Of a stretch of 64,000 nucleotides of DNA, positions 1 through 40,228 are shown piece by piece (position 1 is the first letter of the stretch; each line of letters starts with the position of its first letter). The notes under the pieces are model-generated. The model did not search any database. It had not been told where the DNA came from and saw only the letters and a list, made by a program, of their open reading frames with translations. Location of the stretch: the NCBI GenBank assembly GCA_051362555.1, contig CM120649.1, positions 1,736,001 through 1,800,000 on the forward strand, in the 5' to 3' direction. The DNA is from Lingula anatina. Lineage: Eukaryota; Animalia; Brachiopoda. Both the position numbers and the translations under genes were made by a program.

Positions 1-720
1 CACTCTTGACTTAATGGGTCCCCATATGTGTCACGATTATCACAAAGTACACTGTGACACTGGCAATCCATTCTTATGGTTTTAAATTGTAGTTGTCTCA
101 ATGAAACAAATGTATGTGACCACGGTCAAGGAATAGATATCCTTCCTTTTTGTCCTGTGTCAGAACTTGGTCCAAAAGCACTAAAACCAGTTTTATTGCT
201 ATGGTTACATAGCTAATTTTTGGCCAATATTGTGAAAATCTTACAATTGTTAGGTTTCGAAGCCTAATTAAAGACATTAAACCAAGTAGTTTATTTTAGA
301 AAGCCGATTCAGATAAACCGTAGTTTTAACTTTTTGTGGTACTTTTTGCATTATTAGATGTTTGATGTCTCATTTGTCGCTTGTATGCGAAGTGTTGTTA
401 AAATTAACATTTTGACCAATTCTTTGAATTCATTCCAATGATTTGAAATTAAATGACATTCTACGGGCGTGCTAATGGACGCTCGTCGATCCTGCAGATA
501 TGTTTTCCGAGAAAAATGGATTATACTCATTTCTGCTAAACATAAAACAACGGGTATTTACAGAACCTGCGAATGAGTTGCAAAGTTGGTTTTAACAATA
601 TTTGGTTATTAAGATGAACACAGTCTTGACTTGATGGGTCCCCATATGAGTCACGATTATCACAAAGTACACTGTGACACTGGCGATGCATTCTAATAGT
701 TTTAAAAGGGCAGTTATCTG

Positions 721-1241
721 TGTTGTAAAGTTAATTACTTACCCTTACACTCATTACAATTAGTAATAAAAGGGAAATCAAATAGATGAAAAGTTAGAGT
801 GATATTGAGTGCAAGTTAAGCTTAATCGAGTGTCAACAAGTGTAGAACATGTTTTTAGTGTCAGAAGAAGATGGAAAAGATCCAAGGCAATAACATTTAA
901 TGTGATTGGTCAATTTCATAACAGATGTTAATTTTGATCAACTGTTTATCACATGATAACTAAGTTTTGGACATGATTCAAGTATGAGTAATGCAAATAG
1001 TATTTTGGATGAGTTTAGTTGAAAACAAGGTTCTTAGACATTACCTAATAAGGGAATGTACTATGGTAAAGTAAACATGACAATGGAAAGTTTCTGGAAA
1101 TCACGCCATAAACAATAAAAAGAACATGATTACACGCGTGATCAGTACGGAAAATTAGAGTATAAATATGGGTAAAATTGTATGAAAATTAAGTGGTGAA
1201 TAAATGATTGAAGACTCCAGAACCTCGTCGGCGTTATAATA
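721..1241 (+). repeat. 5' LTR (521 bp)
   Basis: Matches 10955-11475 with one visible mismatch (A880 vs G11114). Termini TGTTGTAA...TTATAATA. Confidence 0.97.
1161..1204 (+). promoter_or_regulatory. LTR TATA box (1161-1168) and poly(A) signal AATAAA (1199-1204)
   Basis: TATAAATA followed 38 nt later by AATAAA near the LTR 3' end, the usual U3-R-U5 order. The 3' LTR copy of AATAAA is at 11433-11438. Confidence 0.7.
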
Positions 1242-1243
1242 AA

Positions 1244-1253
1244 TGGTGGAGGA
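1244..1253 (+). promoter_or_regulatory. Primer-binding site, probably tRNA-Ala
   Basis: TGGTGGAGGA lies 2 nt after the 5' LTR. TGGTGGAG is complementary to the ...CUCCACCA 3' end of tRNA-Ala. Confidence 0.7.
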
Positions 1254-1276
1254 AGAAACCGGTCCCGACTCTACCG

Positions 1277-3031
1277 ATGCAAAGTGAACAACCAGAGAAT
1301 TGGAGTCCTCCAGCAGCAAACACTAGAAAAGCTGTACAGAAGAAACAACTAGAGTCAGGTACCGAAGGTAAATCACCACAAAGACTGGAGAAAACACCAA
1401 CTTTATCTCCAGGAACACCTTGTTTTACATGTACTTTTGCTCCAAAATACGTTAAAGAAAGTGAACAAACTTTTGAAATTCTATCATCTAGCAGTGAGTC
1501 GTCCGAAGAAGACGAAACACTACCTGAAAATTCTCACCAACAGACTGTTGTTCAGAAATGCAGTTTGTTAGATCAAGTCGTCGAGCAAAAATCACCATCA
1601 TATTTTTTGAAAGAGGCCAAACCAATTCCAACAACAGCGACAACCAAATTTCCCAAATCATCGAATTTGAAGGGTTATGCATCGTTAAGCAAAAATCCAT
1701 TTCAAACCGTCCAGAATCTCCCATTGTTATTAGCGACGACGACGACAACGACACAACCGACTCCGAATCTTCAACTGTCATCAGCTTTTCCGAAAACGAA
1801 CCCATTATTATCAGCGACGACGACGACAACGACACAACCGACTCCGAATCTTCAACTGTCATCAGCTTTACCGAAAACGAGCCCATTGTTATTAGCGACG
1901 ACGACGAAGACGACAACACAAGCGACTCCGACAACGACAGAGTCCGCTCAGAGTCTCCAATCGTCATTGATCTCAGCGAAGAATAAGGAGCATTATTCGC
2001 TGAACGTTCAAGATCGCCATACGAACAATTTATTAACAATCGAAAAAACTAGCAAGAAAACAATGTCGTCAGATTTAGGGTTGGCTCCTGAAAAATTCAG
2101 AGGAAATGGAGATGAAGATGTAGAGAGATGGTTGACTCATTTTAGAAACTTTGTCAGTTATAAAGAACTAGAAGGAGACCAGATAACGTCCATTTTTCCT
2201 CTCTTGTTAAAGCAGTCAGCTCTTGATTGGTACGAATCTTTGCCATCTAGAGTACAAAAAGACTGGGAATCTCTTGAGGGCGAGTTTCGACAAAGATATC
2301 AGCTTAGAGATGGGGAAACCTGGGCGAAGGCGTCAGAGTTTTTCCGACGAAACCAAAGGCAAGATGAACCAGTTCAAAATTATATAGCGTCGATGAGGCA
2401 TGATGCAAAACGAGCTCGATTAGATGAAGGTACGGCTCTAACCGTAGTAATGAACGGTTTACTACCGGAAATAAGACCTTTCGTGGTGCAAAGGGAACCC
2501 ACCGACTTCGACTCGTTGGTACACCATGCCCGGATTGCAGAGAATGCAGTACAACCCACACGAAGAGATCAGCAGTCCGATATCAAAATGATCACAGAAA
2601 AAATCGACGCCTTAAAAAGCTCCATCAATGACGTTGTCTTGGCCAGTAAGCAGCCTGAAGTACAAATGGTACAGAATCCGAGACAAGTCCCGAGACCAGT
2701 CCCGAGACAGATCCAGAATGTCCGAAACCTCATACCTCCAAGGCCAAGTCCATTGACTTACATGAGAAGGTTCGGTACCAACGGCATCGGCCACGGGCGC
2801 ATCGACCAACGAAACTTACCACTACGACGCCCCGGGTACAAAGCACTGCCAACAAGTCGTCCGAGAAATCAACAGCAACAAAGCTCAATGAAGGGATGGC
2901 CCATGTGTCAAGGATGTGGTGAGTACACACATCTAAGATCTAAGTGTTTCGCTCGCAATTTCAATTGTTTTTATTGTGGCAAAGTAGGGCATTTAGCAAA
3001 AGTTTGTCATGCTGCGCGAGTGAGCAAGTGA
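1277..3031 (+). CDS. gag: Gag (core from ATG 2063, MSSDLGLAPEKF...), with an open 262-codon Thr/Ser/Pro/Gln-rich N-terminal extension from ATG 1277
   Basis: Retrotransposon-gag-like core (PEKFRGNGDEDVERWL...ALDWYESL...EPVQNYI). Two C-terminal CX2CX4HX4C knuckles (CQGCGEYTHLRSKC, CFYCGKVGHLAKVC). True start codon uncertain. Confidence 0.9.
   Translation: MQSEQPENWSPPAANTRKAVQKKQLESGTEGKSPQRLEKTPTLSPGTPCFTCTFAPKYVKESEQTFEILSSSSESSEEDETLPENSHQQTVVQKCSLLDQVVEQKSPSYFLKEAKPIPTTATTKFPKSSNLKGYASLSKNPFQTVQNLPLLLATTTTTTQPTPNLQLSSAFPKTNPLLSATTTTTTQPTPNLQLSSALPKTSPLLLATTTKTTTQATPTTTESAQSLQSSLISAKNKEHYSLNVQDRHTNNLLTIEKTSKKTMSSDLGLAPEKFRGNGDEDVERWLTHFRNFVSYKELEGDQITSIFPLLLKQSALDWYESLPSRVQKDWESLEGEFRQRYQLRDGETWAKASEFFRRNQRQDEPVQNYIASMRHDAKRARLDEGTALTVVMNGLLPEIRPFVVQREPTDFDSLVHHARIAENAVQPTRRDQQSDIKMITEKIDALKSSINDVVLASKQPEVQMVQNPRQVPRPVPRQIQNVRNLIPPRPSPLTYMRRFGTNGIGHGRIDQRNLPLRRPGYKALPTSRPRNQQQQSSMKGWPMCQGCGEYTHLRSKCFARNFNCFYCGKVGHLAKVCHAARVSK
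1558..1986 (+). CDS. Accessory ORF overlapping the gag leader: acidic protein with tandem SUMO-interacting-like motifs
   Basis: 142 aa with PIVISDDDD, PIIISDDDD, PIVISDDDE, PIVIDLSEE and two TVISF[ST]E motifs. Candidate acceptor ttgttcAG at 1554-1555. Differences between repeat copies are synonymous or conservative in this frame. Confidence 0.6.
   Translation: MQFVRSSRRAKITIIFFERGQTNSNNSDNQISQIIEFEGLCIVKQKSISNRPESPIVISDDDDNDTTDSESSTVISFSENEPIIISDDDDNDTTDSESSTVISFTENEPIVISDDDEDDNTSDSDNDRVRSESPIVIDLSEE
1720..1935 (+). repeat. 81-bp tandem repeat, about 2.5 copies, read in two frames
   Basis: Units start at 1720, 1801 and 1882 (ccc att gtt att agc gac gac...). Confidence 0.9.
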
Positions 3032-6000
3032 CTAAGAAAAGGAACATATAGAAAATTCTATAATAAGACTGAAAATAGGAAAGTACCAATTGCGATTATG
3101 TCTAATTACCAAGCTAATAATTTAGTATCAGTTCGCATTGACAAATTACAAGTTAATGCTTTAGTTGACACAGGCGCTGTCATATCTTGTATATCAGAAG
3201 AACTTTTATCAAAATTAGGAAGAAAAGATCGAAACTTATATGAAAAGCCATCATTAAGAGAAGTTACGGTTGTTGATGGATCTGCGATTAAAGTCCTAGG
3301 AAAAATAGAGTTACCTATATGTTTTCAAAATGTGATCATAAAACATAAATTCCATGTATTTAGTCAGATGCCAAGAGGTTTGATATTAGGTACAGACTTT
3401 CTAAAAAAACATAATGTAAAAATTGATTTATCGTCTAATAGCATGACATTGCCTGATTATGATTTGCTCTTGTCCATGTTTAGTCCACATGTATTAGGTT
3501 TAGTACGTAACTTCAAATCAGAATTGATTCCACCCAGATGCGAATGCTTAATTCCTGTGAAAATATCACATTCTTCATTTGTCTCAGTAGCTTTATTAGA
3601 ACCAGTACAAAAACTTGAGTCAAAGAAAAATCTTATTGGAGCAAAATGTTTAGTTTCCATTAATAAAAACAAATCTTACTACAGAATACTAAATCCTAGT
3701 GATGAAAGTATTTTTCTGCCTAAAAGAACAATATTAGCTTCTGCAAGCTCAATTAATCTAGACAGCATAGCTGTTTTAAATGAAATGTCAGAAGGGAATA
3801 AAATACAAAAGGGTGATCATAGGTTATCAGATCATGAAGCGTTACAAAAAGCTGAAGAATTAAATATAAAGTTTACTGATTCAGACATAAGTGAAAATCA
3901 AAAACAACAGCTGAAAATGTTGATAGGACGTAATCGTGATGTTTTTGCTATCAACCTTTCAGAGTTAGGCACAGCAAATATGTATAAACATCGAATTGAC
4001 ACAATAAATGATGTTCCTGTTAAACAAACATTTTATCGTACTTCACCAAAGCTGAAAGAGGAAATTGTTAAACAAGTAGACGAGATGTTAAAACATAGCA
4101 TAATTGAAGAAAGCATGAGTGAATATAGTAGTCCAGTAGTACTTGTAAAAAAGAAAAACGGTGAATATAGATTCGCAATAGATTACCGGAAGTTAAATAA
4201 AGTTACAAAACCTATGCATTGGCCACTACCACGTTTAGATGATATTTTTGAAACAATAGGTACATCAGGCGCTAGATATTTCTCTAGTTTAGATATGGCA
4301 GGTGCATATTGGCAATTACCCCTTGATCCTGAAACTAAACACAAGACTGCTTTCATTACACACCATGGTCATTTTCAATTTTTGCGTTTAGCATTCGGCC
4401 TTCGTAACGCCGGTGTTAGCTACCAGGCTTTAATGAGCCAAATTTTTAAAGACATGAATTGGAAAACTATCCTTATATACATTGACGATATTTTGGTCAT
4501 GAGTAAAACATTTAATGATCATTTAAAACATTTAGAGTTAGTATTTCAAAAACTGAGATCTGCCAATCTTACACTTAAACCATCAAAATGTAAATTTGCA
4601 ACACCAAAAGCTAAATATTTAGGTCATGTAATAGATAAAAATGGAATAAGACCAGACGAGAAAAATCTTGAAGCCATAAAATCGTTTCCAACACCAAAAG
4701 TTGTAAAAGATGTCAGAAGTTTTCTAGGATTGTGTAACTTCTACAGAAAATTTATAAAAGGCTTCAGTAAAATAGCAGAACCCTTAAATAAACTTTTACG
4801 GAAAGACGTACAATTTTTATGGAGTCCTGAATGTGAAGCATCATTTCAAACATTAAAAGAAGCGTTAATTTCACCTCCTATACTAGCTTATCCAGATATG
4901 TCGCGAGAATTTACATTGACAACGGACGCATCTACTTCCGCTATAGGTTATATTTTAGGTCAAAAGAATGAGAACAATCAAGATAGAGTTATTGCGTATG
5001 GAGGAAGATCTTTGAACAACGCGGAAAAGAACTACACAATTCATGAATTAGAATGTTTGGCAGTAATTGAAGGAATAAAGCAATTCGAACAATATTTATC
5101 TAACAACCATTTCAAAGTGTATACAGATAATAAAGCAATATCTTGGTTACAAAATGTTAAACATACAAATGGCAGACTTATCAGTTGGTCATTAAAATTA
5201 CAAGGCCTAGATTTTGAAATAATTCACAGGCCTGGAAAAACAAACCCAGCTGACGCATTATCAAGACGTGATTATGAACCAGTACATGTTTTAGATACTG
5301 TTAACAATAGTCAGTTAAGTAAAGGTCACATGCGTCAAGTTAAACATTGGACCCAAGCTAAACTTTTCTTACCAAAACAAACAGATAAAAGAATGGAGCA
5401 AAGTTTAACTCAATATAATAACATGAACAGTGTTGATGTAACAAATGTAAACGATAAAGAGAAATTAAAAAAAGATCAACGCGAATGCCCTGAGTTTCAA
5501 GATATAATACTTTACCTAGAACAAAATTATTTACCTAGTGACTTAAAACAAGCGCGTAAAATCATAGCAGAATCAGAACAATATGTAATGATAGATGGTA
5601 TTTTGTATCATCTGTATCAACCTCGTACGCGGGGAATGCCAGAAAAGATGAGAATAATAAGACAATTAGCAATTCCAGTAACACTAAGAAGTGATGTTTT
5701 ACATGCATATCATGATTCATTAACAGCCGGTGGTCATCAGGGTTGTGATAGAACATTTGCCTCTATAAGAAATAAATACTTTTGGAGATCACTTTATAAA
5801 GATGTCATGGAATACGTTAAATCATGTGAAGTGTGTCAAAAGGTTAAACAATTGCGTAGAGATGCTCCAGCACCTTTGAACCCTTTACCAATTGCAGGTG
5901 TGTTTGAAAGAATGCACATGGACATTCTAGGACCCTTGATAAAATCAAGAGAAGGATATAAGTATATTCTGTTAGTAACATGCTCTTTTTCCAATTTTGC

Positions 6001-7090
6001 TGAAGCAATACCCTTAAAAACTCAAGAAGCTGAAGAAATAGCTAAAGCTCTTTATAGAGAAGTGTTTACAAGATATGGCTGTCCGTCATATCTCGTTTCT
6101 GATCGCGGAAAGAATTTTTTGTCCCAAATTATTCAATCACTGTGTAAATTGTTCCACATTAAACGCTATCATACTAGCGCATGGCATCCACAAAGTAACG
6201 CAGCCTGTGAAAGAACCAATTCAATAATTGCACAAACATTAAGAGCATATTGCGATAAAGATCAAACTAATTGGCCTGATATTCTTCCAGGTGTAATGAT
6301 GGCATTACGTATGACTCCTTGTACACAATCTACACATTTTTCTCCTTATTATTTAGTATTTGGACGAGAGATGCGTACACCATTAGATAGTGATTTAATT
6401 CCTGAACTTAATGATAACAAAAATCTACATCAATACATTAAGGATTTGAAAAACACTCTGTCAACAGCAAAAGAAATAGCAACAAAGAATAGAGAAACAT
6501 CTCAGAAACAATATAAAGCAAGGTATGATCTTAAATCAAAGCAACCGATTTATAAAATAGGTGATAGAGTTTGGATATATACGCCAATGACACCTAAAGG
6601 GTTAAGTTCAAAATTGTACATCAAGTACAAAGGACCGTATTATATTACGAAGATTTTATCTACGGGTTGCACATATTATTTGAGAGACTGTAAAACGCAT
6701 AAAGAACATACATCACCTGTCCATGCAAACAGATTAAAAATGTACTATGATCCTAAAGACTATAATAAATACACTAGGTTAAATGACAGTAACCTTGAGC
6801 AAGTCAAGACGAACAAGAAGCAAACGAGTATTGAAACACAAGACAAAGATAAACGTGAAACAAAAGAATTGGATCGAACATCAGACGAAAATCAAGATAC
6901 GTACGAATATTATGAAGTAGAGAAATTGTTATGTTGTAAGAATATAAACAGAAAGAGACATTACAAAGTAAAATGGAAGGGTTATAAGAATCCTACTTGG
7001 GAACCCGAAGAAAATATTTCAGATGCATTAAAAAGAGATTATCATATTAATAAAACTTTACAAGGAAGACGAAGAAAACGTAGAAATTAA
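3032..7090 (+). CDS. pol: Pol polyprotein: aspartic protease, dUTPase-like segment, RT, RNase H, integrase, GPY/F, chromodomain; in frame with gag behind a single TGA
   Basis: LVDTGA; YIDD at 4478-4489; TTDAS; H..H..CEVC zinc motif; MDILGP/SDRG/CERTN catalytic triad; KGPY; YEVEK...YKVKWKGY...TWEPEEN at ~6908-7045. No stop between 3032 and the ATG at 3098. Confidence 0.97.
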   Translation, partial: LRKGTYRKFYNKTENRKVPIAIMSNYQANNLVSVRIDKLQVNALVDTGAVISCISEELLSKLGRKDRNLYEKPSLREVTVVDGSAIKVLGKIELPICFQNVIIKHKFHVFSQMPRGLILGTDFLKKHNVKIDLSSNSMTLPDYDLLLSMFSPHVLGLVRNFKSELIPPRCECLIPVKISHSSFVSVALLEPVQKLESKKNLIGAKCLVSINKNKSYYRILNPSDESIFLPKRTILASASSINLDSIAVLNEMSEGNKIQKGDHRLSDHEALQKAEELNIKFTDSDISENQKQQLKMLIGRNRDVFAINLSELGTANMYKHRIDTINDVPVKQTFYRTSPKLKEEIVKQVDEMLKHSIIEESMSEYSSPVVLVKKKNGEYRFAIDYRKLNKVTKPMHWPLPRLDDIFETIGTSGARYFSSLDMAGAYWQLPLDPETKHKTAFITHHGHFQFLRLAFGLRNAGVSYQALMSQIFKDMNWKTILIYIDDILVMSKTFNDHLKHLELVFQKLRSANLTLKPSKCKFATPKAKYLGHVIDKNGIRPDEKNLEAIKSFPTPKVVKDVRSFLGLCNFYRKFIKGFSKIAEPLNKLLRKDVQFLWSPECEASFQTLKEALISPPILAYPDMSREFTLTTDASTSAIGYILGQKNENNQDRVIAYGGRSLNNAEKNYTIHELECLAVIEGIKQFEQYLSNNHFKVYTDNKAISWLQNVKHTNGRLISWSLKLQGLDFEIIHRPGKTNPADALSRRDYEPVHVLDTVNNSQLSKGHMRQVKHWTQAKLFLPKQTDKRMEQSLTQYNNMNSVDVTNVNDKEKLKKDQRECPEFQDIILYLEQNYLPSDLKQARKIIAESEQYVMIDGILYHLYQPRTRGMPEKMRIIRQLAIPVTLRSDVLHAYHDSLTAGGHQGCDRTFASIRNKYFWRSLYKDVMEYVKSCEVCQKVKQLRRDAPAPLNPLPIAGVFERMHMDILGPLIKSREGYKYILLVTCSFSNFAEAIPLKTQEAEEIAKALYREVFTRYGCPSYLVSDRGKNFLSQIIQSLCKLFHIKRYHTSAWHPQSNAACERTNSIIAQTLRAYCDKDQTNWPDILPGVMMALRMTPCTQSTHFSPYYLVFGREMRTPLDSDLIPELNDNKNLHQYIKDLKNTLSTAKEIATKNRETSQKQYKARYDLKSKQPIYKIGDRVWIYTPMTPKGLSSKLYIKYKGPYYITKILSTGCTYYLRDCKTHKEHTSPVHANRLKMYYDPKDYNKYTRLNDSNLEQVKTNKKQTSIETQDKDKRETKELDRTSDENQDTYEYYEVEKLLCCKNINRKRHYKVKWKGYKNPTWEPEENISDALKRDYHINKTLQGRRRKRRN

Positions 7091-7340
7091 AAAGTAGTCT
7101 CTTCAACATGAGTGAGTTCGATAATCAATACACTGGTAAAGAAAAAGATACACACACATTTAAAAAAAAAAAAAGGGTATACTGTACACAAGGTCAAATG
7201 TAAAATTTGGAAATATCAGCCATACAGCTTAACCGAACCCTAAATGATATCCGGATATCTATTTCCTATCTATCCTATCTTTTATTTTTCTTCTCTTTTT
7301 CTTAGATGAGGCTAAGTTGAGCAGTATTCGCTGTAAGCCA

Positions 7341-9747
7341 ATGGCATTGACCTTCAAAGAAATGGTTCTATGGATTCTCGCTATCATGAGCGTTGCATCA
7401 GCTTCCTCGACAAAGATGGAACAACGCATAAATTATGGTATTGAGTTTAGACCATTTACTGATGCACTTTTTTAACGTAGGGCATTGGTATCATTCTTTT
7501 GAGTTAAAATTACCTAGAATTGATGTAATACCAGCTAGGTTAACGCCATGTCCTAATGGTAAAGTTGGGGAAAATAAATTGATAAACCCACGTTGTAAAA
7601 TATGGATAGACGAAGCAATACGAACATTATCAACATTAAAAAATCAAACAATACACGATTTACGATTGACCATGAAGACAATTTTGTATATGATGCCACA
7701 AATTACTTTGCATGATGTTAGATCGAGAAGTCAAAGATCATTGTTACCAACAGGTAATTTATTCAAAATGCTGTTTGGTGTTTCTAGTGAGTCTGATGTT
7801 ACAAATTTACGAAATTATGTTAACAAGTTTAAAAAGGGTACAATTAACTTGTTTACTAAACAAGCACATAAAATGACTTCATTCATAAATATGGTAGACG
7901 ACAGAATGGAAAACATGAAATCTGCCATTGCTCAAAATCATGAAATTGCTCAGAAATTAAGTTTTGATTTGAACATTTATGCTAGAAATAGTGAATTAGC
8001 AGCAGTAATATCAAGATTGTTTGCACACGAAGAAATGGCTAATTCTCAATTATTATTTTCATTTCAAAATCTACTGATGGCATGCATTCAGTTGACAAAA
8101 GGACAATTGTCATCATTTTTAATTCCACCTGAAGAACTGAGTAAAGTACTTACCGGAATTAAAAAAGAGTTACGTACAATGCCAATCCCAATGGAATTAA
8201 TTCACTATGACCCGAAATATTATTTCCACCATGGACAATTTACATACGGTTTATTCAATCGTTCATTGTTTATAAATCTTCAAATCCCTGTAGTATCCAA
8301 TGCACATATTTTGGAAGTGTACGAAGTTATTACGTTTCCGGTTCCACTTAATCAATCCACAAATCATGCATCCCAGATTCTGAATCTTCCTAAATATTTT
8401 GCCATCACCAAAGATAGACAACATTATGCTATTCCTGATGAATTTACTTGGAGACATTGCAAAGGTAGTCATCTTAAACTTTGCAGTTATAACATGCCAC
8501 TCTTGTCTGTTATTCAGCCAGACTGCACTGCTGCATTGTTTTTAGAGATCTCAGATAAAATACAGCTGCTCTGTAATTTTCGATTTGTTTATAATGCAGT
8601 TAAAACACAGATAAAAGATGTTTTGACAAACCAATTACTTTTGATAAACATAACTGACATTACCCTCAGATGTCCTAAAACAACAACTTCACTAAGCGGA
8701 TGTCACTATTGTGTTATTCAAATCCCTTGTTTTTGCAGTTTGAATTTAGATAGTTTTTATCTCCCACCTCGAGTATCAAGTTGTCAAAACAATACTGAAA
8801 TAACAAAGCTCCATCCTATTAATTTGGGTTTATTACAGTACTTTTATTCACCAGAACAAATTTCTAAAATTGGAAGTAATGATTTATTTAATAAACCCTT
8901 AAATTCGAAATCGAATCTTCTACAATTATTTCAACATAACTTTTCCCGTTTTCTCGCCAAAGATTCCATTGATCATTTGAGCCTACAAAAAATGGCCCAT
9001 GCTTCAAAAAGACAAGAGCAAATCTATTCTTCAATGGCAGATGCTATTTTAGCAGACGAAATATTTCCTACAAATAATTCATCTGAGATAAAAATTTGGA
9101 TTTCATTAGGATTATCGGGCTTATTGTTCATGATAACGATTGGCCTAAGTATCAAAGTCAGACAATTGGCATTAATAGTGGCTTTAATGAAAAAGACACG
9201 TGGTAATGAAGTTTTTCCAACTATTCCGCATTGGTTATTAGATACCACAACAAAGCCAAATTATAAACCAAAGGAACTAAATTCCACAGATCCAACAACA
9301 TTTATTATTTTATTAATGCAGATTGTAATTATTATAATTGTTTTGATTTTCATCTTAGAACAAATCTGGAGAAGGTTTTTCAAATCAAAAAGAAATACTT
9401 TAGTTTTAGAGATTTCTAACAATGAACATTGTATATCAATTCCAATTAAAAATCTATCATTTTGTCCAAAATACTGGGTTTTTCAAAGTGATCATTTTTC
9501 GTTTGATATTTTAAGAGTTGAAGGAATTTACAGACCATATTTGATGATAAATTGGCATGGTTTGCAAATTACAAACCTCATAAATCGAAAGACCATTATT
9601 TTGGAAGAGGCTATCCCGTTAAAAACGTTTACAGCATTTCGCTTAAGGAGATTACTTAAAAGCGAATATTATGCGTTTTTGTGTATTAAACATGCTAATG
9701 CACTTTTCTATGTTCAGTTCGAGACATTTGAGCACAATATAGAATGA
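7341..9747 (+). CDS. env: Envelope fusion glycoprotein (baculovirus F / errantivirus Env-like) with a +1 frameshift at 7468-7473
   Basis: Signal peptide MALTFKEMVLWILAIMSVASA then QRINYGIEF in the 7341 frame, which stops at CTT TTT TAA; the protein continues in the 7435 ORF. RSQR cleavage site (7726-7737) followed by a fusion-peptide-like SLLPTGNLFKMLFGVSSESD. Heptad-rich and Cys-rich regions. Hydrophobic segments at ~9094-9153 and ~9301-9369. Strong polypyrimidine acceptor AG at 7304-7305. Confidence 0.88.
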
Positions 9748-10205
9748 TTTTGATCAAAACTTGGCATGACTTGCTACTCTTGTCTAATAATACAACACAA
9801 TACAATGATTTTTGCGAGTGAACTGTTATAACACGAAGATGTGTGTACAAACATAAAATGACATTTCCATGACTTGAAGATTGAATTTTCTTGATTGTTA
9901 ATTTGATATCAAACACTGATATATGTATTATTATCATGATAATGACTTTGAGAAATGCACAAAGTTATTTTCAATTTGATTCTTGAAGATTACTACTATT
10001 ATGTAATATTATAATACTTATTATTAAAATCATTCACTATTTTATTTGAGTTTTGACATATTGATTTTAGTTATCTATAATATATTATGTAAAATGTAGT
10101 CATTATAATTAGTATATTTTATTTCAATTGTTAAGTATTTAATATTGATATTAAACATTTGTTAATCAATTAGAATGAATTATAATATGTTCTATTTTTT
10201 TTCAG

Positions 10206-10768
10206 ATTCTGACGAATTTGTATATAATATTTACATAGATGACAGAATTGTCAGCTTATCTTTTAAATTTTTTGAGAATTTACGTAAACATTCAATATAC
10301 ATAAATGAATTGTATTTTAAACAGAAAAGAGAACCTAATTTTCAAATAAAATTTCCTTCTGAGGTGATAAACGAATCAATTTTACTGATGTTTTGTGGAA
10401 AGTTTAATTCTATAGATGAACAGTTGGACTTTGTAAAATTAATAGGTTCTGCTCATTATATGATGATATCAGAAGATTACATAGTTTATATGTTGCATCA
10501 AATACCATCAGGTATTGGTAAATGTATTATTCAAGCAATATATTATGCATGGAATGTCACTCATTTAGTCAAAGTTAGCATATTATTACTACGACGTTTA
10601 AATATTGCTGTTAAATATTATACTGAATTACTACTGAATAAGGATAAAGTTATATCATATAATAGATTTAGACGACGTATTATTAAGATAACAAGAAATG
10701 ACAATAATTGTGTTCTTACAATAAATGTTATGACACAATGTCCTGTTTGTAAATACATTGAACATTGA
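10206..10768 (+). CDS. Accessory ORF/exon encoding a divergent BTB/POZ-like domain with a C-terminal CxxC
   Basis: LRKHSIYINELY, QIKFPSEVINESILLMFCGKF and DFVKLIGSAHYMMISE line up by eye with the BTB pattern La.+S.YF..lf / i.l..v..e.f..ll.f.YtG / ..ll.aA.yl.i. The ORF is intact in very AT-rich DNA and follows the acceptor ttctattttttttcAG (10204-10205). An in-frame ATG is at 10175. Confidence 0.62.
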
Positions 10769-10917
10769 TGCATGGAACAAATTAATGTCAAGTATATTTT
10801 TAGTTCATTAAGATAATATGACGAGTTTATGATTAAATGATTTGCGAATTTTATGTTATTCAGTATATGCTTTGCTTTAAAAAAAAAATCAAAAAGGAGT
10901 GTATGTTGTAAAGTTTT

Positions 10918-10950
10918 AGAATTCGAGGACGAATTCTTTTGAAGAAAGGG
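10918..10950 (+). promoter_or_regulatory. Pre-PPT hairpin (10918-10937) and polypurine tract (10941-10950)
   Basis: AGAATTCG-AGGA-CGAATTCT forms a perfect 8-bp stem. GAAGAAAGGG ends 4 nt before the 3' LTR. Confidence 0.8.
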
Positions 10951-10954
10951 TGTA

Positions 10955-11475
10955 TGTTGTAAAGTTAATTACTTACCCTTACACTCATTACAATTAGTAA
11001 TAAAAGGGAAATCAAATAGATGAAAAGTTAGAGTGATATTGAGTGCAAGTTAAGCTTAATCGAGTGTCAACAAGTGTAGAACATGTTTTTAGTGTCAGAA
11101 GAAGATGGAAAAGGTCCAAGGCAATAACATTTAATGTGATTGGTCAATTTCATAACAGATGTTAATTTTGATCAACTGTTTATCACATGATAACTAAGTT
11201 TTGGACATGATTCAAGTATGAGTAATGCAAATAGTATTTTGGATGAGTTTAGTTGAAAACAAGGTTCTTAGACATTACCTAATAAGGGAATGTACTATGG
11301 TAAAGTAAACATGACAATGGAAAGTTTCTGGAAATCACGCCATAAACAATAAAAAGAACATGATTACACGCGTGATCAGTACGGAAAATTAGAGTATAAA
11401 TATGGGTAAAATTGTATGAAAATTAAGTGGTGAATAAATGATTGAAGACTCCAGAACCTCGTCGGCGTTATAATA
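10955..11475 (+). repeat. 3' LTR (521 bp)
   Basis: Near-identical to 721-1241 and followed by the TSD TCTG. Confidence 0.97.
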
Positions 11476-12185
11476 TCTGTAAGAAACAAATAGATGTGGC
11501 TAAGGTAAAGGAAAAGATATTCATACTTTTTGTCCTGTAGCAGACCTTGGTCCAAAAGCACCAATAAAAAAAGAAGCTTTATTTACACCCAAGAATGCTT
11601 GTTGCTATAGTTACAGGTAGAACCTGATTTTTGGCCAATTTATTTTTAAATCGGGAGAGTTGAAAACCTTGTAATTGGTAGGTATTGAAGCCTTACTCTT
11701 AAAACATTAAACCAAATACATTATTTTCAAAATCTGATTCATATAGAACGTAGTTTTAACTTTTTTGCCGTACTTTCAGAATTTTTAATTAAATGATCGA
11801 AATGTTGTTAAAGTTAACATTTTTTTTTTATTTCTGAAAGAGTTCCAGAAGTGGTGCTTTGTAAAGTTTTAGATTCCTAATACGTGGATCAAAATAAGAT
11901 TTGATTATTCATAGCAAGAAGAGCAAATCCTCTATCGTTTTATCAACTATGTTCATTTATCCATTTAGGAGGCCAGATTGAAATTTCTCAATATTTCCAA
12001 TTTTCGTATATATTTTATAGTGCCTGACTCAAATCAATTAAAAAATTTAATATGTTATTGGTCATGAGGGTAGTTTTGAGGAGGTTGATGTTTTAAATTT
12101 GTAAAAATGGTGTGAAATATTGGTATCTTCACAGGTACTTTGTATTTTGACAACCATATGTCTTGTTATTTTTGGTATCTGGAAA

Positions 12186-14251: not shown

Positions 14252-17200
14252 ATGATGGGATTGTTGTTCTGCCCGAGTCTTGTACTGGCCTTGATAGCGT
14301 GCGTCTTTCTCAGTCAAACTCATCTGAGTCTAACATGTAAGTGTATAGATACCAGCTTGACATCCAAGCCCTTACGGAACTTTCCTATAGGATCCTATAG
14401 GGCACCTTCCCATAAGATTTCCTATAGGATATTATAAGATTTCCTTATAGGGTTCTATAAGATTTCCTATAGGATCCTATAGGAAAATGGGACAATTTCC
14501 TATAGGAAATTATATAGGAAATCTTATAGGAAATCCTATAGGAAATCCTAAATTTTCGTAAGAGAGTTCATGTACAGTAGCATGTTTGCAATTCTGAGAT
14601 ACAATGTCAATTTTCGTTTCAGCATTTTGGTCTCAACATTGCTTGTTTGCAACAATCATATGCCTGTTTTTATGGATCTTTTCAATTCTAAGTCATTCCC
14701 ACCTTCCTGCGGAGAATGCAATCCAAGCTGCGGTATATCCGCCTCTTGTAGTTAAGAATCCACAATAACCATCACTGCCATATGACTAGGTATTTTCCTT
14801 ACTTCAATCTTAATATACTGAGTGCTAAGCGAGGAGACAGCCGATATTATTATTATAATGGCCTTTGGTATGACCAGGCCATGGTGTGGACAGTTTAAAC
14901 CTGTAAATCATTTAGACGTGGTCCAGGCGTTCAAGGCGTTATAGTGTAAAAACGATAAGATATGCATGATTTATCTATTCAAATTGTTTGAATTTCAAAA
15001 AGTAATTAAACTATATGTGTGAAATATTAGAGCATGCCTGATATTTAAATTGCCTTATAACATCTATTTTCAGTCGGATGCGAGTCTAACAGTTGCTATA
15101 ATGGTGGGTTTTGTGACGATAAACCTGACGATCAGTCTGGCTTTCATTGCATTTGCTTTGATAAGCATTTCGGAGAGAGATGCGAATTGCGTAAGCAATG
15201 CCCTTGTGACGTTTACTAGCCTCCTTTGTCGATAACAGGGAGTAGTGATGTATAGCAAAATATTAGAAAACAAGTTTACTTTTGCAACGATTGATGGCAA
15301 CATATATGTTTCATTTGACATTTTGTACAAAATGAATTCCATAAATATCAGTTACCCTGATTAGTAACCTGTGCAATGCTTAAAATATAAAAACTGAAAT
15401 ATCTAAACTGAAATAGCATGCGTAGCATTTTATAAACCTTAATTGTAATATCCTCATTTCAGGTAATTGCAAATGGGGTTACTGCTTCAATGGTGCAACG
15501 TGTGCAACAAATACTACAAATTCGAAACAGTTGTGTATTTGTCCCGAGGGTTGTAATGGAAAAATGTGCGAAATAGGTAAACCGTGCCTTTCTAATACTG
15601 CATGCATTCTGTATCTGAGTATTTAAGGATAACAATTAATAGCACTAAGTTGTGAAGCATGCAGCAAAAGAAATTACAAAACAAATTTACCAGCGCAAAA
15701 TTGATGCCAGAAGATAGTAACAAGAACCAGTAATAGTAACTTCTATAGACTGATATTAAGCCATATGGCTCTAGATCTCTGTTTGTTAATTACAATACAA
15801 CTAACATATTCAGGTGATAAGGTGGACGTTATGAAAATGCGTCATGAAATGACGTCCATTAAGGTGGTTTAAAAGTTTAATTTTTTATTTTTGCAGGCAA
15901 GTGTCAAGGTACATTTTTTTATTTGTTTTCAGCACAATGTGGGGAAAACGCCCACTGCCAATACAAGCCGCATAAAATTCCATTGCCTGGGAAAAATGAC
16001 AGCTGCAATGCATTAAATCATGAAGGTTGTGTTTGCAACGAGGGTTACAGCGGGGATGGAATCAACTGCACTAGTAAGTCTTAGGCCGTATTCAGAACAG
16101 TGGACTAACTAGTATACCGGTCAAATGTGGCCGACCCACTTAAATATTTCCCCTTAATCTACTCAGTGTCTATTAGTGGATTGGACGGTTGCGTTATTTG
16201 ACGCCTAGACTATAGTTAGTCGACTCTTCTGATTGAACAGTTATTTTGGTATAGCAGAAGTTAGCTGAAATCATAACCTGGCAACCGTTTCACAAAAAAA
16301 CTTAAGTCGGTTTCCCTGACTAAGAGCTTGGTTACCAACGTAATTAAGTCGTTACGTCACTAAGTCCCGTTTCACAAAGAATCTGCTTACGTCGTTTTTT
16401 TCTTAGCTGCTAGTCGACGATGTCTAGCCTCCTCGGGAGGAGCCTTAAGTCGGCAAGCTCAACTAAAACTCGGTAAATGATAGCATAAACAACAAAAATT
16501 TGGAAAGAACATACCTCCTTCAAGATATTGTGTTATGATATCCTTGAATTAAAAATTGAAATTAAAAATAAAATGCCACTTCACCCAGCCGATCGCGTGT
16601 TTGTTCATGTTTTTGACCACTAGACGTCCTTCAGCAGTGTTCCACGACAAGCTAATGTTTAACTGTTACTTTGAACTTTTATCGAAGTTAAACTAATCAA
16701 TAAAGTTCAAAAACAAACTTTGTTTGTGTTTTGGCTGATTTTTATTGTTGATAAACGATCGTTCCCGGTCGAAAGAGGCCATGAAGCGTCATGTCTTGTA
16801 AAACTTTTGGAATTTTACACCTCCTTTTCTTGAAGAGTTTCTCGTGCGCGTCGACTACGGTAAGCACACCAAGCTACGACTTTAGATTCTTTGTGAAATA
16901 CTCCTAGTCGACTGCGGCGTAGTCGACCTAGATCGGCCGTTCAGCTCGAGCTAGTGAACTACGGATTTAAGATTCTTTGTGAAACGGGGGCCTGAAATAA
17001 CTTAGAATCGACTCCCCCCCCCCTCGTGGACAGCCCAATCTACTGTTTCACAAAAAAACCCAAGGACTCATGCACACCCCTAGTGATAAGTCTACCAAAT
17101 TCCTAAAGTTAAATCTTTCTCACTCTAATGATCCAGGAGGAAAAAGCAAAAATTACGACGCAGAAAAAGAAAAAAAATAATAATATCAATCACCCCCGGT

Positions 17201-17943
17201 GTTACTAAAACCCCGTAATGCTCATGTACATGCTTGATAAAAGATATTCTAATTACCAATGTTTGAATTTTCTCAGCCTGTTAGTCTAGGAGACGAAGGA
17301 AAAACACAAGGTATTACAAGAAGGATTAACCGCACCCAGGGACAGCCCAACCCCCTGTTGCAGTAAATTTCTGTGCAGGGATGCCCATGCACACAATTTA
17401 AGCTATCAAAAACACAATGTAAATATAATTAAGAATCGCCACCCACACTGACAAATCAAATCCCAGCTGTACTAAAATCCCCATGTGCGAAACTCAGGTC
17501 TAATTATTCCCAAAGTTTAAACTTCCTCACCTCACACTTATGGTCAAGGGGGAGTTAGCTGAAATTTCAAGTTAGAAAGAATTTGTTATCATTCAACTCC
17601 CAGGGACATGCCGCCACACAATCCACTATGAAATTCCAAAGTAACCATGCACATGATTCATTAAACAATATTAAAGTCTATCAATACCGAAATTATCTCA
17701 CTCTTGTGCTACAAGAGGGGATGGCACAAATTACAGTGTAAAAGGAATTGAGAATCAGAAGCAACGTCTTTTGTCTAAAAGGTGCGGGCATAACAAGCAA
17801 TCAATTTTGTCAAGTGCAACGTTGTTTTGTCACCGATAACCATACATATATTACATATTACTGAATGCGCAATGTGCTCAAATAAAAACGGAGGCAAGGT
17901 GTCCATAAAATATATTTCTTTTCTTTCAGAATCGGCGGAATAA
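14252..17943 (+). CDS. Secreted 3xEGF-like protein, copy A (156 aa); exons 14252-14336, 15074-15190, 15463-15576, 15933-16073, 17930-17943
   Basis: Signal peptide MMGLLFCPSLVLALIACVFLSQ. Three phase-1 exons each encode one EGF-like domain (CESNSCYNGGFC...CICFDKHFGERC; CKWGYCFNGATC...CICPEGCNGKMC; CGENAHC...CVCNEGYSGDGINC). All GT-AG introns, no stops. Confidence 0.88.
14369..14564. mobile_element. Palindromic MITE (CMC/EnSpm-like) in intron 1 of copy A
   Basis: Termini CCCTTACGGAA / TTTCGTAAGAG with a 2-bp TSD AG. The interior is built of CCTATAGG palindromes. Absent from the same intron of copy C. Confidence 0.75.
16281..16991. mobile_element. PIF/Harbinger-like MITE in intron 4 of copy A
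   Basis: TIRs GCAACCGTTTCACAAA / TTTGTGAAACGGGGGC with a 3-bp TSD CTG. The same insertion is in copy C. Confidence 0.75.
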
Positions 17944-18454
17944 ACAACCAGAAAATGAAATACCAAAAATTGCAGGAGAGGATACACAGTTATTTGATTA
18001 AATTAACACCCATGTTTATTAAAAATATTAATTTGGACATTCATTGAAAATTCTGTATGAATTAAGTATATCAATTGAAAATAGATATATGGGCATTGCA
18101 TTTGGTTCTTTTTTCATTTTCTCATCTCATTTTATTCTCATTAACTGGGTAATGCAAATAAAATATCACAGAGAGGCCTCTTTGTTGCAATATTTTGGCT
18201 GTTATTCCATAACGCGCGCACACACACACACGCACATAGAAGAGAAAGAGAGAGAGAGAGGGAGGGACAAAAAACTGACAGCTAGATCGCTGCCACGGAA
18301 AAAGGTTATCATAAATTTGATTCAACTGAGCAATTCAAATATAATGTCGCAATCTGGTTATAGACCTTCATAAACTCTGGTTGAATGTTTTAGGTTACCT
18401 GTTACAAATTCGTCCACATCCAGCAGTTTAGGTGGTGGACAGACTAAACACATA

Positions 18455-18498
<44 letters not shown>

Positions 18499-19812
18499 AA
18501 TTTCATCAGAAATAATCATGGCAACAATTGGGTCAGTTCGTTGGGAATCATTGTAATAAAAAAGACCAAAAACAAAAGTTTGCAATAGTTGCCTTTACTG
18601 CTTTACCCAACACTAATATTTGTCAAGCTGCATGAGTGTTTATGGAAGTCCCGACCTGTATGGAAATTTTCTAGGTCAAATATAAAACTACACTGATGTA
18701 CCGGTACTTGCAGTATATTATAATCAGTAGTGAGGAGAGTTTGCATTTCCTGAGCTGACATCAACGAGGAAAAACGAAGTAATTTCTATGTTAACTGAGA
18801 AATATTGTAATCAGTGCAGTTCTGTAACTTGGTGGTGATCTTATCCACTGCGTACACCGATCGTTGCTAAATAGCCAGTGGAATGTATCTCAGCCAGGGG
18901 CGGACGGAAACTGTCTTCTGGGTCAGATTTTTTCCAAATTTATATTAACGGGCATCTAACTTTTTTGCTGTTGCAAGAAGGTCAAAAATCTTAGATGGAA
19001 CAATAAAAATAATTTGGAAGACTCTCAGAAAATATATCTGAATCCTCCCCTGACAGTGTTTCCGGTGGAGTGGAATGCTTCCTCTGTAATATGTTTAGTT
19101 TAAGCTTGGTCAGGAATCCAATTAACCTTTAAATACCAAATACTGATTAATAAAGGAGATGGTTGCCTGATAGCACACTTTTAACAACCGCCTTTAGAAT
19201 TTTAAGAGATGGATAGTGAAGGTGTGAGAATAGACACTCTCCATTTGTTGAAACTATTTCGTACATTCAACCAAATATAGTGAAAATTTTGTTTCAAGTA
19301 ATTCAACCATATATATATACAGACTACAGACTATCAAGAAAATTTACTTGAAAGCCGTTGCCATTGTACAGGCTTGCTAATGGACGCTCTTCGGTCCTGC
19401 AGGTATGTTTTCTGAGACAAATGGATTATATGCATTTCTGCTAAACGAAAAACAGCGAGTATTCACAGAATCTGCAAATGACTAGTAAAGTTTTTTTTTT
19501 TTTAAATAATATTCGGTTATTTTAATACCTTGAAAGATGAGCAGTATCACGACTTGATGGGTTTTCATATGTGTCATGATAATCACAAGGTAAACTGTGA
19601 CACTGGCGATGTATTCTAATTGTCTGAAAAGGACAACTGTCTGTATGAAAAAATGTAGGTGACCATTGTCAAGGAAAATATTTCAGCAGACCTTGGTCCA
19701 AAAACACCAAAACCAGTTTTTTTACACCCATCAATGCTTGTTGCTATGGCCGCAGGCTAAACCTGACTTTCGGCCAAATATTGGTTTTATATCAGAGGAG
19801 TTTGAAACCTTG

Positions 19813-39800: not shown

Positions 39801-40182
39801 CTAATGTTTAACTGATTAGTAAAACTAATCAATAAAGTTCAAAAACAAACTTTGTTTGTGTTTTGGCTGATTTTTATTGTTGATAAACGATCGTTCTCGG
39901 CCGAAAGAGGCCATAAAATGTCATGTCTTGTGAAACTTTTGAAATTTTAAACCTCCTTTTCTTGAAGAGTTTCTCGTGCGCGTCGACTACGGTAAGCACA
40001 CCAAGCTACGGCTTTAGATTCTTTGTGAAACACTCCTAGTAGACTGCAGCGTAGTCGACCCAGCTAGGCCATTCAGTTCGAGCTAGTCAACTACGGATTT
40101 AAGATTATTTGTGAAACGGGGGCCTGAAATAACTTAGAATCGACTCCCCCCCCCCTCGAGGACAGCCCAATCTACTGTTTCA

Positions 40183-40228
<46 letters not shown>

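What the first reader, a model, noticed from the sequence alone, without database searches (positions are those of the whole stretch)
1277..10768. Candidate 'complex' invertebrate endogenous retrovirus: one 5' leader exon could splice in frame to three products (SIM protein, Env, BTB protein)
Seen: donors in the ATG-1277 frame (AAG|GTAAAT after 1367, GCA|GTGAGT after 1493, CAG|GTACCG after 1358) are all phase 1. Three downstream acceptors (AG at 1554-1555 before the SIM ORF, 7304-7305 before env, 10204-10205 before the BTB ORF) are also all phase 1, so each join is in frame, e.g. ...ESGTE-D-EAKLSS...MALTF (Env) and ...ESGTE-D-SDEFVYNI (BTB). Known: errantivirus env is made from a spliced mRNA, but the standard layout is gag-pol-env only; several spliced accessory genes are the hallmark of complex vertebrate retroviruses such as lentiviruses. 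Inference: this element has its own accessory gene set, and it is recent enough (LTRs 1 nt apart) that the ORFs were probably functional at insertion.
Basis: partly seen in the sequence, partly recalled or inferred. Interest (0 to 1): 0.93.

Follow-up and report, generated by a model that had tools for sequence, protein, structure and literature searches.

The report
Envelope retrotransposon with two accessory genes
A young envelope-carrying jumping gene, likely from an invertebrate, has two extra reading frames beyond the usual three, one predicted to fold like a ubiquitin-ligase adaptor and one likely to bind SUMO, and it likely splices one short leader onto the envelope and adaptor genes, although no spliced RNA was seen.

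Summary
The element is real: a Ty3/gypsy element with 520-bp LTRs one base apart, a 5-bp target duplication, gag, chromodomain pol and an F-type env, resembling the 'ancient errantiviruses'. All proposed splice sites exist and are phase 1, but they differ in weight. The env acceptor ranks 1 of 613 AGs, and a phase-1 acceptor recurs in 2 of 3 distant relatives. The 3' ORF acceptor ranks 3 of 613. The SIM acceptor ranks 171 and is at chance level. The 3' ORF has a database homolog (33% identity), and its model has a BTB fold plus helices. The SIM ORF is overprinted on an open N-terminal Gag extension, and its repeat differences favour the SIM frame. No junction was seen in 1,082 RNA reads from 4 runs, which barely covered the leader and missed most of env. 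Env is split across two frames in this copy. Verdict: an env-carrying retrotransposon with probably two accessory genes. Leader-to-env splicing is likely, leader-to-BTB fairly likely, leader-to-SIM unsupported. An anti-silencing role is a hypothesis.

The parts
721..1240 (+). 5' LTR (520 bp), TSD ATCTG at 716-720; TATAAA near 1161 and AATAAA near 1199
   Evidence: 1 mismatch to the 3' LTR
1244..1251 (+). candidate primer-binding site TGGTGGAG; tRNA not identified (likeness to tRNA-Ala is recalled)
   Evidence: not tested against host tRNAs
1277..1367 (+). predicted coding leader exon, ATG 1277 to donor AAG|GTAAAT (phase 1); weaker donors at 1358 and 1493
   Evidence: no junction read
1277..3031 (+). 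gag ORF, 584 aa: 262-codon N-terminal extension, core from ATG 2063, Retrotrans_gag, zinc knuckle
   Evidence: PF03732 E 4.6e-9; PF00098 E 0.011, under its cut-off; extension open in 0 of 2000 shuffles
1558..1986 (+). SIM-repeat ORF (142 aa from its own ATG), overprinted in the -1 frame on the Gag extension; four P-I-[VI]-I cores at 1720, 1801, 1882, 1957, each followed by acidic residues
   Evidence: no informative Pfam hit; SIM consensus recalled; no relative found
3032..7090 (+). pol, same frame as gag behind TGA-CTA (predicted stop read-through): protease, RT, RNase H, integrase, chromodomain
7281..7305 (+). env splice acceptor (pyrimidine tract and AG), phase 1
   Evidence: rank 1 of 613 AGs; 0 of 2000 shuffles; phase-1 acceptor in L001 and L002
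7306..9747 (+). F-type env, split over two frames that overlap at 7432-7475 in this copy; RSQR site at 7726, hydrophobic stretches at 9094 and 9283
   Evidence: 4 of 10 homologs hit Baculo_F, the window protein itself does not
10181..10205 (+). 3' ORF splice acceptor, phase 1; overlaps in-frame ATG 10187 (a second in-frame ATG is at 10175)
   Evidence: rank 3 of 613; 3 of 2000 shuffles
10206..10768 (+). 3' accessory ORF (186 aa after the acceptor): predicted BTB/POZ core, further helices, C-terminal CPxC
   Evidence: homolog P0012 E 4e-7; model pLDDT 77; BTB fold hits; open in 0 of 2000 shuffles
10955..11474 (+). 3' LTR with purine tract just upstream; TSD ATCTG at 11475-11479

Best explanation
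This is a young chromodomain- and env-carrying Ty3/gypsy retrotransposon with two extra reading frames, which likely splices one short leader exon (ATG 1277, donor 1367) onto env and onto a predicted BTB adaptor gene, while the overlapping likely SUMO-binding protein is likely read from its own ATG. Unspliced RNA would give an N-terminally extended Gag from ATG 1277, and Gag-Pol by read-through of TGA-CTA (inferred). The strong acceptor at 7305 would give Env with a short leader before its signal peptide, as in Drosophila ZAM and Beagle elements (inferred from statistics and relatives). The acceptor at 10205 would give leader plus BTB (inferred, weaker). The SIM protein would come from ATG 1558 by leaky scanning or reinitiation (least certain step). 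The most likely job of the pair is to tune host protein control in the element's favour: the BTB protein as a Cullin-3-type adaptor or decoy, the multi-SIM protein binding SUMO-tagged silencing factors (hypothesis, untested). Shown: layout, open frames, splice-site sequences, a homolog, a predicted fold. Not shown: any spliced RNA, protein or activity.
For: Layout and domains. Env acceptor rank 1 of 613, 0 of 2000 shuffles, 0 equal sites in 52.5 kb of flank. Strong phase-1 acceptor just before the env signal region in L001 (770) and L002 (533), about 30% identical in Env. 3' ORF acceptor rank 3 of 613, 3 of 2000 shuffles, placed where the homolog and the first predicted strand begin. In 4 of 4 reads of run X7 a related copy has a one-base gap at 10195, between the upstream ATGs and the acceptor, as expected if that stretch is intron. 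3' ORF is a protein family (P0012, 33%, E 4e-7), with BTB fold hits and BTB clusters by language-model features for the homolog. Reads of related copies lie on the 3' ORF (mean depth about 9 and 12 in two bins of X7). SIM repeats: 4 of 5 distinct differences in the four-residue P-I-[VI]-I cores are synonymous and one is V/I in the SIM frame; those four synonymous ones change the Gag-frame residue (L/S three times, P/Q once). Both frames stay open far beyond chance (0 and 1 of 2000 recodings). Known precedent for env spliced to a short leader peptide (PMC12992720, passages).
Against: No joint in 1,082 reads laid from 4 of 9 runs; only 5 were 99% or more alike, depth over 1334-1700 was at most 0.55 and 7206-8673 had none, so the test was weak. 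The homologs P0012/P0013 begin with their own Met at the position of the acceptor, and their genomic context is unknown. The 3' ORF has in-frame ATGs at 10175 and 10187. L001 and L002 reach their purine tract about 290 and 570 bases after env with no BTB or SIM match. No Foldseek hit reached E 0.001 (best 0.004), best Z 7.8, no Pfam hit. Env is broken in this copy. ATG 1558 lies behind four upstream ATGs (1204, 1243, 1277, 1429). The gap at 10195 rests on 4 reads of a copy that may be dead. No relative of the SIM ORF was found.
Confidence: 0.45

Rival explanations
1. One reading: the one leader exon is spliced to all three ORFs, the SIM ORF through a deliberately weak acceptor (1555, or 1543 or 1714) that leaves enough unspliced genomic RNA.
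For: All joins are in frame. 4 of the 6 best AGs in 1500-1720 are phase 1 for the SIM frame; 1714 sits just before the first SIM repeat. Weak acceptors for accessory genes are typical of HIV-1 (recalled).
Against: Acceptor 1555 ranks 171 of 613 and is matched in 699 of 2000 shuffles. The ORF has its own ATG at 1558. No junction read (very low depth there).
Confidence: 0.25
2. Only env is spliced. The BTB gene is a separate unit with an internal promoter in the AT-rich gap 9748-10170 and starts at ATG 10175 or 10187; the SIM ORF uses ATG 1558.
For: In-frame ATGs with A at -3 precede the ORF. The homologs start with Met at this place. Internal env promoters are known in Oikopleura Tor3b/4b (PMC4402516, passages). 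An equally strong AG occurs somewhere in the gap in 127 of 2000 shuffles and 13 times in 52.5 kb of flank.
Against: Strength, phase and open frame together arise in 3 of 2000 shuffles. The one-base gap at 10195 in 4 of 4 reads of a related copy would put those ATGs out of frame unless offset.
Confidence: 0.2
3. The extra ORFs are passengers: a captured BTB fragment not yet decayed, and a 'SIM' frame that is a by-product of low-complexity Thr/Ser repeats in the Gag extension.
For: Both are absent from L001 and L002. The SIM frame is open in 29 of 2000 dinucleotide shuffles, and its non-repeat part in 495 of 2000. The count of repeat differences is small. The homolog's context is unknown.
Against: The BTB protein is at most about 21% identical to the BTB structures it matches, yet is fully open (0 of 2000 shuffles) and has a 33% homolog of like layout. 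Repeat differences spare the SIM cores, not the Gag frame. Reads of a more distant relative match a 33-base island (10734-10766, 57 and 59 reads) over the CPxC-coding end.
Confidence: 0.1

Closest known systems
Chromodomain-bearing 'ancient errantiviruses' with F-type env of Cnidaria, Mollusca and Annelida (Chary and Hayashi, PMC13524379; abstract, section 5 part 1 of 2, section 22, passages and one supplement search read)
   Same: LTR-gag-pol-env Ty3/gypsy layout, chromodomain after integrase, F-type env family with a furin-type site and membrane anchor, signs of recent activity. The closest Env found is from Lingula anatina (51% over 66% of the query).
   Different: Two further ORFs and predicted splicing; the paper's main text has 0 occurrences of 'splic', 'accessory', 'BTB' or 'SUMO'. 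Env is split in this copy. Tree placement was not tested.
Drosophila errantiviruses, ZAM and Beagle subclades (PMC12992720, passages)
   Same: Env exon spliced to a short peptide-coding exon upstream of gag.
   Different: Here the leader is in frame with gag and would also serve a second acceptor; pol has a chromodomain; no accessory ORFs appear in the passages read.
Drosophila MDG1 group sORF1/sORF2 (PMC11952523, passages)
   Same: Accessory ORFs upstream of the gag core in a Ty3/gypsy element; sORF1 is nuclear.
   Different: No env, no splicing in long reads, ORFs do not resemble SIM or BTB proteins in the passages read.
C. elegans Cer1 CERV (PMC10309623, passages) and bdelloid rotifer ORF3s (PMC5408684, passages)
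   Same: Non-env accessory proteins in animal LTR retrotransposons, made from spliced messages (shown for CERV).
   Different: They take the env slot; here the accessory ORFs come in addition to env.
Viral BTB adaptors such as vaccinia A55 BTB-BACK bound to Cullin-3 (PDB 6i2m) and giant-virus BTB proteins
   Same: Predicted BTB core followed by helices.
   Different: No Kelch or WD40 substrate domain, no N-terminal dimerisation segment, a short CPxC tail; at most about 21% identity; Cullin-3 binding untested.
Complex vertebrate retroviruses (lentiviruses; recalled)
   Same: Works like them in having genes beyond gag-pol-env, possibly from one leader, possibly recruiting cullin ligases.
   Different: A Ty3/gypsy element with chromodomain and F-type env; no homology to Tat, Rev, Vif or Vpr was found; multiple splicing not shown.

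Membership tests
Ty3/gypsy LTR retrotransposon (Metaviridae) | Two LTRs with target-site duplication and purine tract | tested here: met
   520-bp LTRs, 1 mismatch, TSD ATCTG; ends are TG...AT, not TG...CA
Ty3/gypsy LTR retrotransposon (Metaviridae) | gag, then pol in the order protease-RT-RNase H-integrase | tested here: met
Ancient errantivirus, F-type | env after pol, homologous to F glycoproteins | tested here: met
   11 homologs; 4 of the 10 aligned hit Baculo_F, best E 5e-16; the window's own protein has no hit; RSQR and two hydrophobic stretches
Ancient errantivirus, F-type | All three ORFs uninterrupted (the paper's 'intact' class) | tested here: not met
   env split over two frames at 7432-7475; mutation or assembly error not resolved, no reads there
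Ancient errantivirus, F-type | Placement in the ancient clade of the pol tree; RNase H bridge type | not tested
   no reference pol sequences were at hand; chromodomain present (PF00385 E 2.8e-8)
Complex retrovirus-like organisation | Genes beyond gag, pol and env | tested here: met
   3' ORF with homolog and predicted fold; SIM ORF weaker
Complex retrovirus-like organisation | Several spliced subgenomic mRNAs from one leader | tested here: inconclusive
   no joints in 1,082 reads, coverage too low to test
Complex retrovirus-like organisation | Accessory proteins regulate expression or counter host defence | not testable with these tools
   hypothesis only
BTB/POZ domain | Core BTB fold (three strands, five helices) | tested here: met
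   model pLDDT 77, pTM 0.75; the ten best Foldseek PDB rows are all BTB proteins, best E 0.004; best Z 7.8, rmsd 3.6, 92 aligned (a second look at Foldseek's own rows)
BTB/POZ domain | Sequence-profile match (Pfam) | tested here: inconclusive
   no BTB hit for the window protein, P0012 or P0013
Long-form dimerising BTB (ZBTB, Kelch) | N-terminal extension before the core | tested here: not met
   model residue 1-3 aligns to residue 20-33 of those chains; the leader peptide would sit there instead
Cullin-3 adaptor | Binds Cullin-3 through BTB and 3-box | not testable with these tools
   helices after the core align loosely with SPOP and KBTBD2 (rmsd 4.4-6.7); no Cullin-3 sequence was available
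Multi-SIM protein | Hydrophobic V/I core flanked by acidic residues, repeated | tested here: met
   four cores; consensus is recalled, not from a call
Multi-SIM protein | Binds SUMO | not testable with these tools
   no binding test possible

The most novel reading that the evidence does not exclude
An invertebrate 'complex' endogenous retrovirus that arose independently of Retroviridae: one leader exon is alternatively spliced to Env, a multi-SIM protein and a BTB adaptor, and the two accessory proteins together act like a SUMO-targeted Cullin-3 ligase or decoy that disarms SUMO-dependent piRNA silencing, a functional counterpart of lentiviral Vif and Vpr.
Probability: 0.12. Interest if true: 0.92.

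Novelty: new variant of a known kind. Interest (0 to 1): 0.64.

Why it matters
Env-carrying Ty3/gypsy elements have just been shown to be ancient and widespread, but are described as gag-pol-env only. An element that adds a BTB-fold gene and a multi-SIM gene would show that invertebrate retroelements also evolved accessory genes aimed at ubiquitin and SUMO control. SUMO is linked to piRNA-guided silencing in Drosophila (10.1101/533091, PMC10363806; titles and abstract starts seen), so the two small proteins are concrete candidates for the open question of how animal retrotransposons resist silencing. I found no paper on a BTB or SIM accessory gene in such an element (listings); the library lacks most subscription papers, and figures and bioRxiv supplements could not be seen.

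Tried and rejected
No host genome is held, so sister copies could not be collected; the rest of the window has no match to the SIM, leader, gag or BTB proteins. No RNA holder was listed; 9 runs came by species label. A closer look at reads over the 3' acceptor was not obtained, so 5 of the 9 runs are unexamined. Word-index searches found nothing for the 3' ORF or Gag; pol found nothing in metagenome contigs; env found nothing in genome or viral contigs; the BTB protein or its homolog found nothing in viral or genome contigs. The single-sequence model was poor (pLDDT 39.5) and its fold searches were uninformative. The Atlas hit of the window protein to viral RdRPs (0.91, 132 shared features) is rejected: the better model and the homolog point to BTB. 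The NIPBL match (E 0.37) is chance. A -1 frameshift into the SIM frame at T TTT TTG (1603-1609) was considered; the downstream fold is weak (-7.2 kcal/mol), so it is set aside. A hydropathy scan (19-residue window, cut-off 1.8) did not flag the Env signal peptide, which is called by eye. L003 is broken and gave no phase-1 acceptor before env. No complex prediction was sent, as no Cullin-3 or SUMO sequence was available. The eLife master table has no ORF coordinates in its head row, so it could not show extra ORFs in relatives.
Full report
The element. Window 721-11474 is a complete LTR element. The LTRs (721-1240, 10955-11474) differ at 1 of 520 bases and are flanked by ATCTG on both sides, so the insertion is young. 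ATG 1277 opens a 584-aa gag frame with Retrotrans_gag and a weak zinc knuckle. Pol follows in the same frame behind TGA-CTA, a read-through context (recalled), with protease, RT, RNase H, integrase and a chromodomain. Env has 11 database homologs, the best from Lingula anatina at 51% over 66% of the query; 4 of the 10 that I aligned hit Baculo_F, the window protein does not. This matches the chromodomain-bearing, F-type 'ancient errantiviruses' of PMC13524379 (passages); I built no tree. A lophotrochozoan host is an inference from that best hit. Env is split over two frames overlapping at 7432-7475, so a spliced Env would end after 86 aa in this copy.

The splice sites. Their weight differs. 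Donor 1367 is one of 3 sites in 1195-10954 with at least 8 of 9 consensus matches; a phase-1 donor that good appears in 66 of 2000 leader shuffles. That all three donors are phase 1 says little, since 8 of 15 GTs in the leader are. With a simple pyrimidine score of my own, the env acceptor ranks 1 of 613 AGs, the 3' ORF acceptor 3, the SIM acceptor 171. An equally strong, phase-1, open-frame site arose in 0, 3 and 699 of 2000 shuffles.

Relatives support the env splice. Of 3 metagenome loci with related env, L001 and L002 have a strong acceptor in phase 1 just before the signal region, with the first downstream Met inside the hydrophobic stretch; L003 is broken and shows none. Of 18 homolog N-termini printed, 6 run through a Phe-rich stretch ending in Gly before the signal region, as a frame read through a pyrimidine tract and AG|G would, and 5 lack a signal region; others (P0001, P0004, P0005) have Met and a full signal. 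This is inferred from protein letters, and many rows come from one cluster. Env spliced to a short leader peptide is known in Drosophila ZAM and Beagle elements (PMC12992720, passages), so this part is ordinary.

The 3' ORF is a real protein family. It is open for 186 codons (0 of 2000 shuffles). A full search of 1.84 billion representatives found 1 homolog, P0012 (33%, E 4e-7), with a near-identical cluster mate P0013; both end near a CPxC motif like the window protein. With these three rows AlphaFold2 gave pLDDT 77 and pTM 0.75. The ten best Foldseek rows in the PDB are all BTB proteins (ZBTB18, vaccinia A55, SPOP, ZBTB8A, NPR1; best E 0.004, none under 0.001), the viral library gives mostly BTB proteins, VIA gives Z 7.8 over 92 residues at rmsd 3.6, and language-model features place P0012 with BTB clusters (0.92, 143 shared features, a lead only). 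Pfam finds nothing. The model starts at the BTB core and continues in helices that align loosely with the 3-box/BACK region of SPOP and KBTBD2. Against a general role: L001 and L002 reach their purine tract about 290 and 570 bases after env and have no such ORF, and the context of P0012 is unknown. Against the splice: the homologs start with their own Met at that place, and the window ORF has in-frame ATGs at 10175 and 10187.

The SIM ORF (1558-1986) lies in the -1 frame over the Gag extension. It has four P-I-[VI]-I cores followed by acidic runs, which fit the recalled SIM consensus. In the four-residue cores, 4 of 5 distinct differences are synonymous in the SIM frame and one is V/I, while those four change the Gag-frame residue. 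Outside the cores the compared stretches show one synonymous change, S/T, D/E and the two changed residues after the last core. Keeping either protein and recoding it at random left the other frame open in 0 and 1 of 2000 trials, and the 262-codon extension is open in 0 of 2000 shuffles, so both frames seem maintained. The numbers are small and no relative was found. ATGs are somewhat scarce in 1280-2062 (3 against a mean of 6.8; 18 of 500 shuffles as low), which fits scanning-based starts. The ORF's own ATG lies two bases behind the proposed acceptor.

RNA. No run was listed as holding the stretch; 9 were offered by species label and 4 were laid, 6 to 25 in 100 of each being read. 1,082 reads lay on 600-11600, 5 of them 99% or more alike, so they come from related copies. 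No joint reached the listing threshold (3 reads, 2 starts). Depth over 1334-1700 was at most 0.55 and 7206-8673 had none, so the test could hardly have found the junctions. In X7, related copies cover the 3' ORF (mean depth about 9 and 12 in two bins), 57 and 59 reads have loose ends bounding an island at 10734-10766 over the CPxC-coding end, and 4 of 4 reads show a one-base gap at 10195, which would disconnect the upstream ATGs but not a spliced product. Those 4 reads are themselves unspliced there. Reads lie on both strands about equally, so strand is not shown; 37 loose-end rows and 478 difference rows were not displayed.

Mechanism. I put 0.45 on: one start (ATG 1277) serving Gag from unspliced RNA, and Env and BTB from spliced RNA, with the SIM protein read from ATG 1558; 0.25 on all three spliced; 0.2 on only env spliced with the BTB gene on its own promoter (precedent for internal promoters: Oikopleura Tor, PMC4402516, passages); 0.1 on passengers. 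The likeliest function is control of host ubiquitin and SUMO pathways, possibly against SUMO-dependent piRNA silencing (listing only). That step is a hypothesis.

Novelty. Accessory ORFs are known in animal Ty3/gypsy elements: MDG1 sORF1/2, unspliced and without env (PMC11952523, passages), Cer1 CERV (PMC10309623, passages) and rotifer ORF3s (PMC5408684, passages). I found none with env plus a BTB gene plus a SIM gene (listings; one search returned 0 papers), and PMC13524379 does not use the words splice, accessory, BTB or SUMO in its main text; its figures were not visible. Earlier unchecked notes of this scan describe other extra genes in gypsy elements, one in an env-carrying element, and two predicted leader splices that reads did not confirm, so extra ORFs recur and predicted splices need caution. 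Verdict: new variant of a known kind, interest 0.64.

Noticed in passing
window 3029-3034: gag and pol are in one frame, separated by TGA followed by CTA, a read-through context (recalled), rather than a frameshift.
   Followed up: no
window 7751-7759: A strong donor-like site CAG|GTAATT inside env, just after the RSQR site, is also phase 1 in the env frame and could in principle join the Env N-terminal part to the 3' ORF.
   Followed up: no
window 10882-10966: The purine tract and first bases of the LTR (TGTTGTAAAGTT) occur twice, about 52 bases apart, with TTCGAGGACGAA between them; a similar motif lies before the purine tract of L001 (3409).
   Followed up: partly
window 1204-1287: Two short upstream ORFs (ATG 1204 and ATG 1243, the latter overlapping the primer site and ATG 1277) may tune translation; ATG 1277 has C at -3.
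   Followed up: no
window 4270-7205, run X7: A related subfamily, 90-95% alike, is well covered by reads in pol (depth mostly 15-42) but falls below 90% likeness or is absent over env.
   Followed up: partly
L001 2-595: The pol C-terminus of this relative has a long Asp-rich run before its chromodomain-like end.
   Followed up: no
window 9094-9340: Env has two hydrophobic stretches near its C-terminus and a tail of about 135 residues; the homologs show the same layout.
   Followed up: no
window 1-720 and 11475-64000: The flanks are a patchwork of non-coding repeats (for example 14997-19000 with 38029-43664); the element sits inside a repeat related to 28559-29037. No ORF over 153 codons outside the element.
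   Followed up: no
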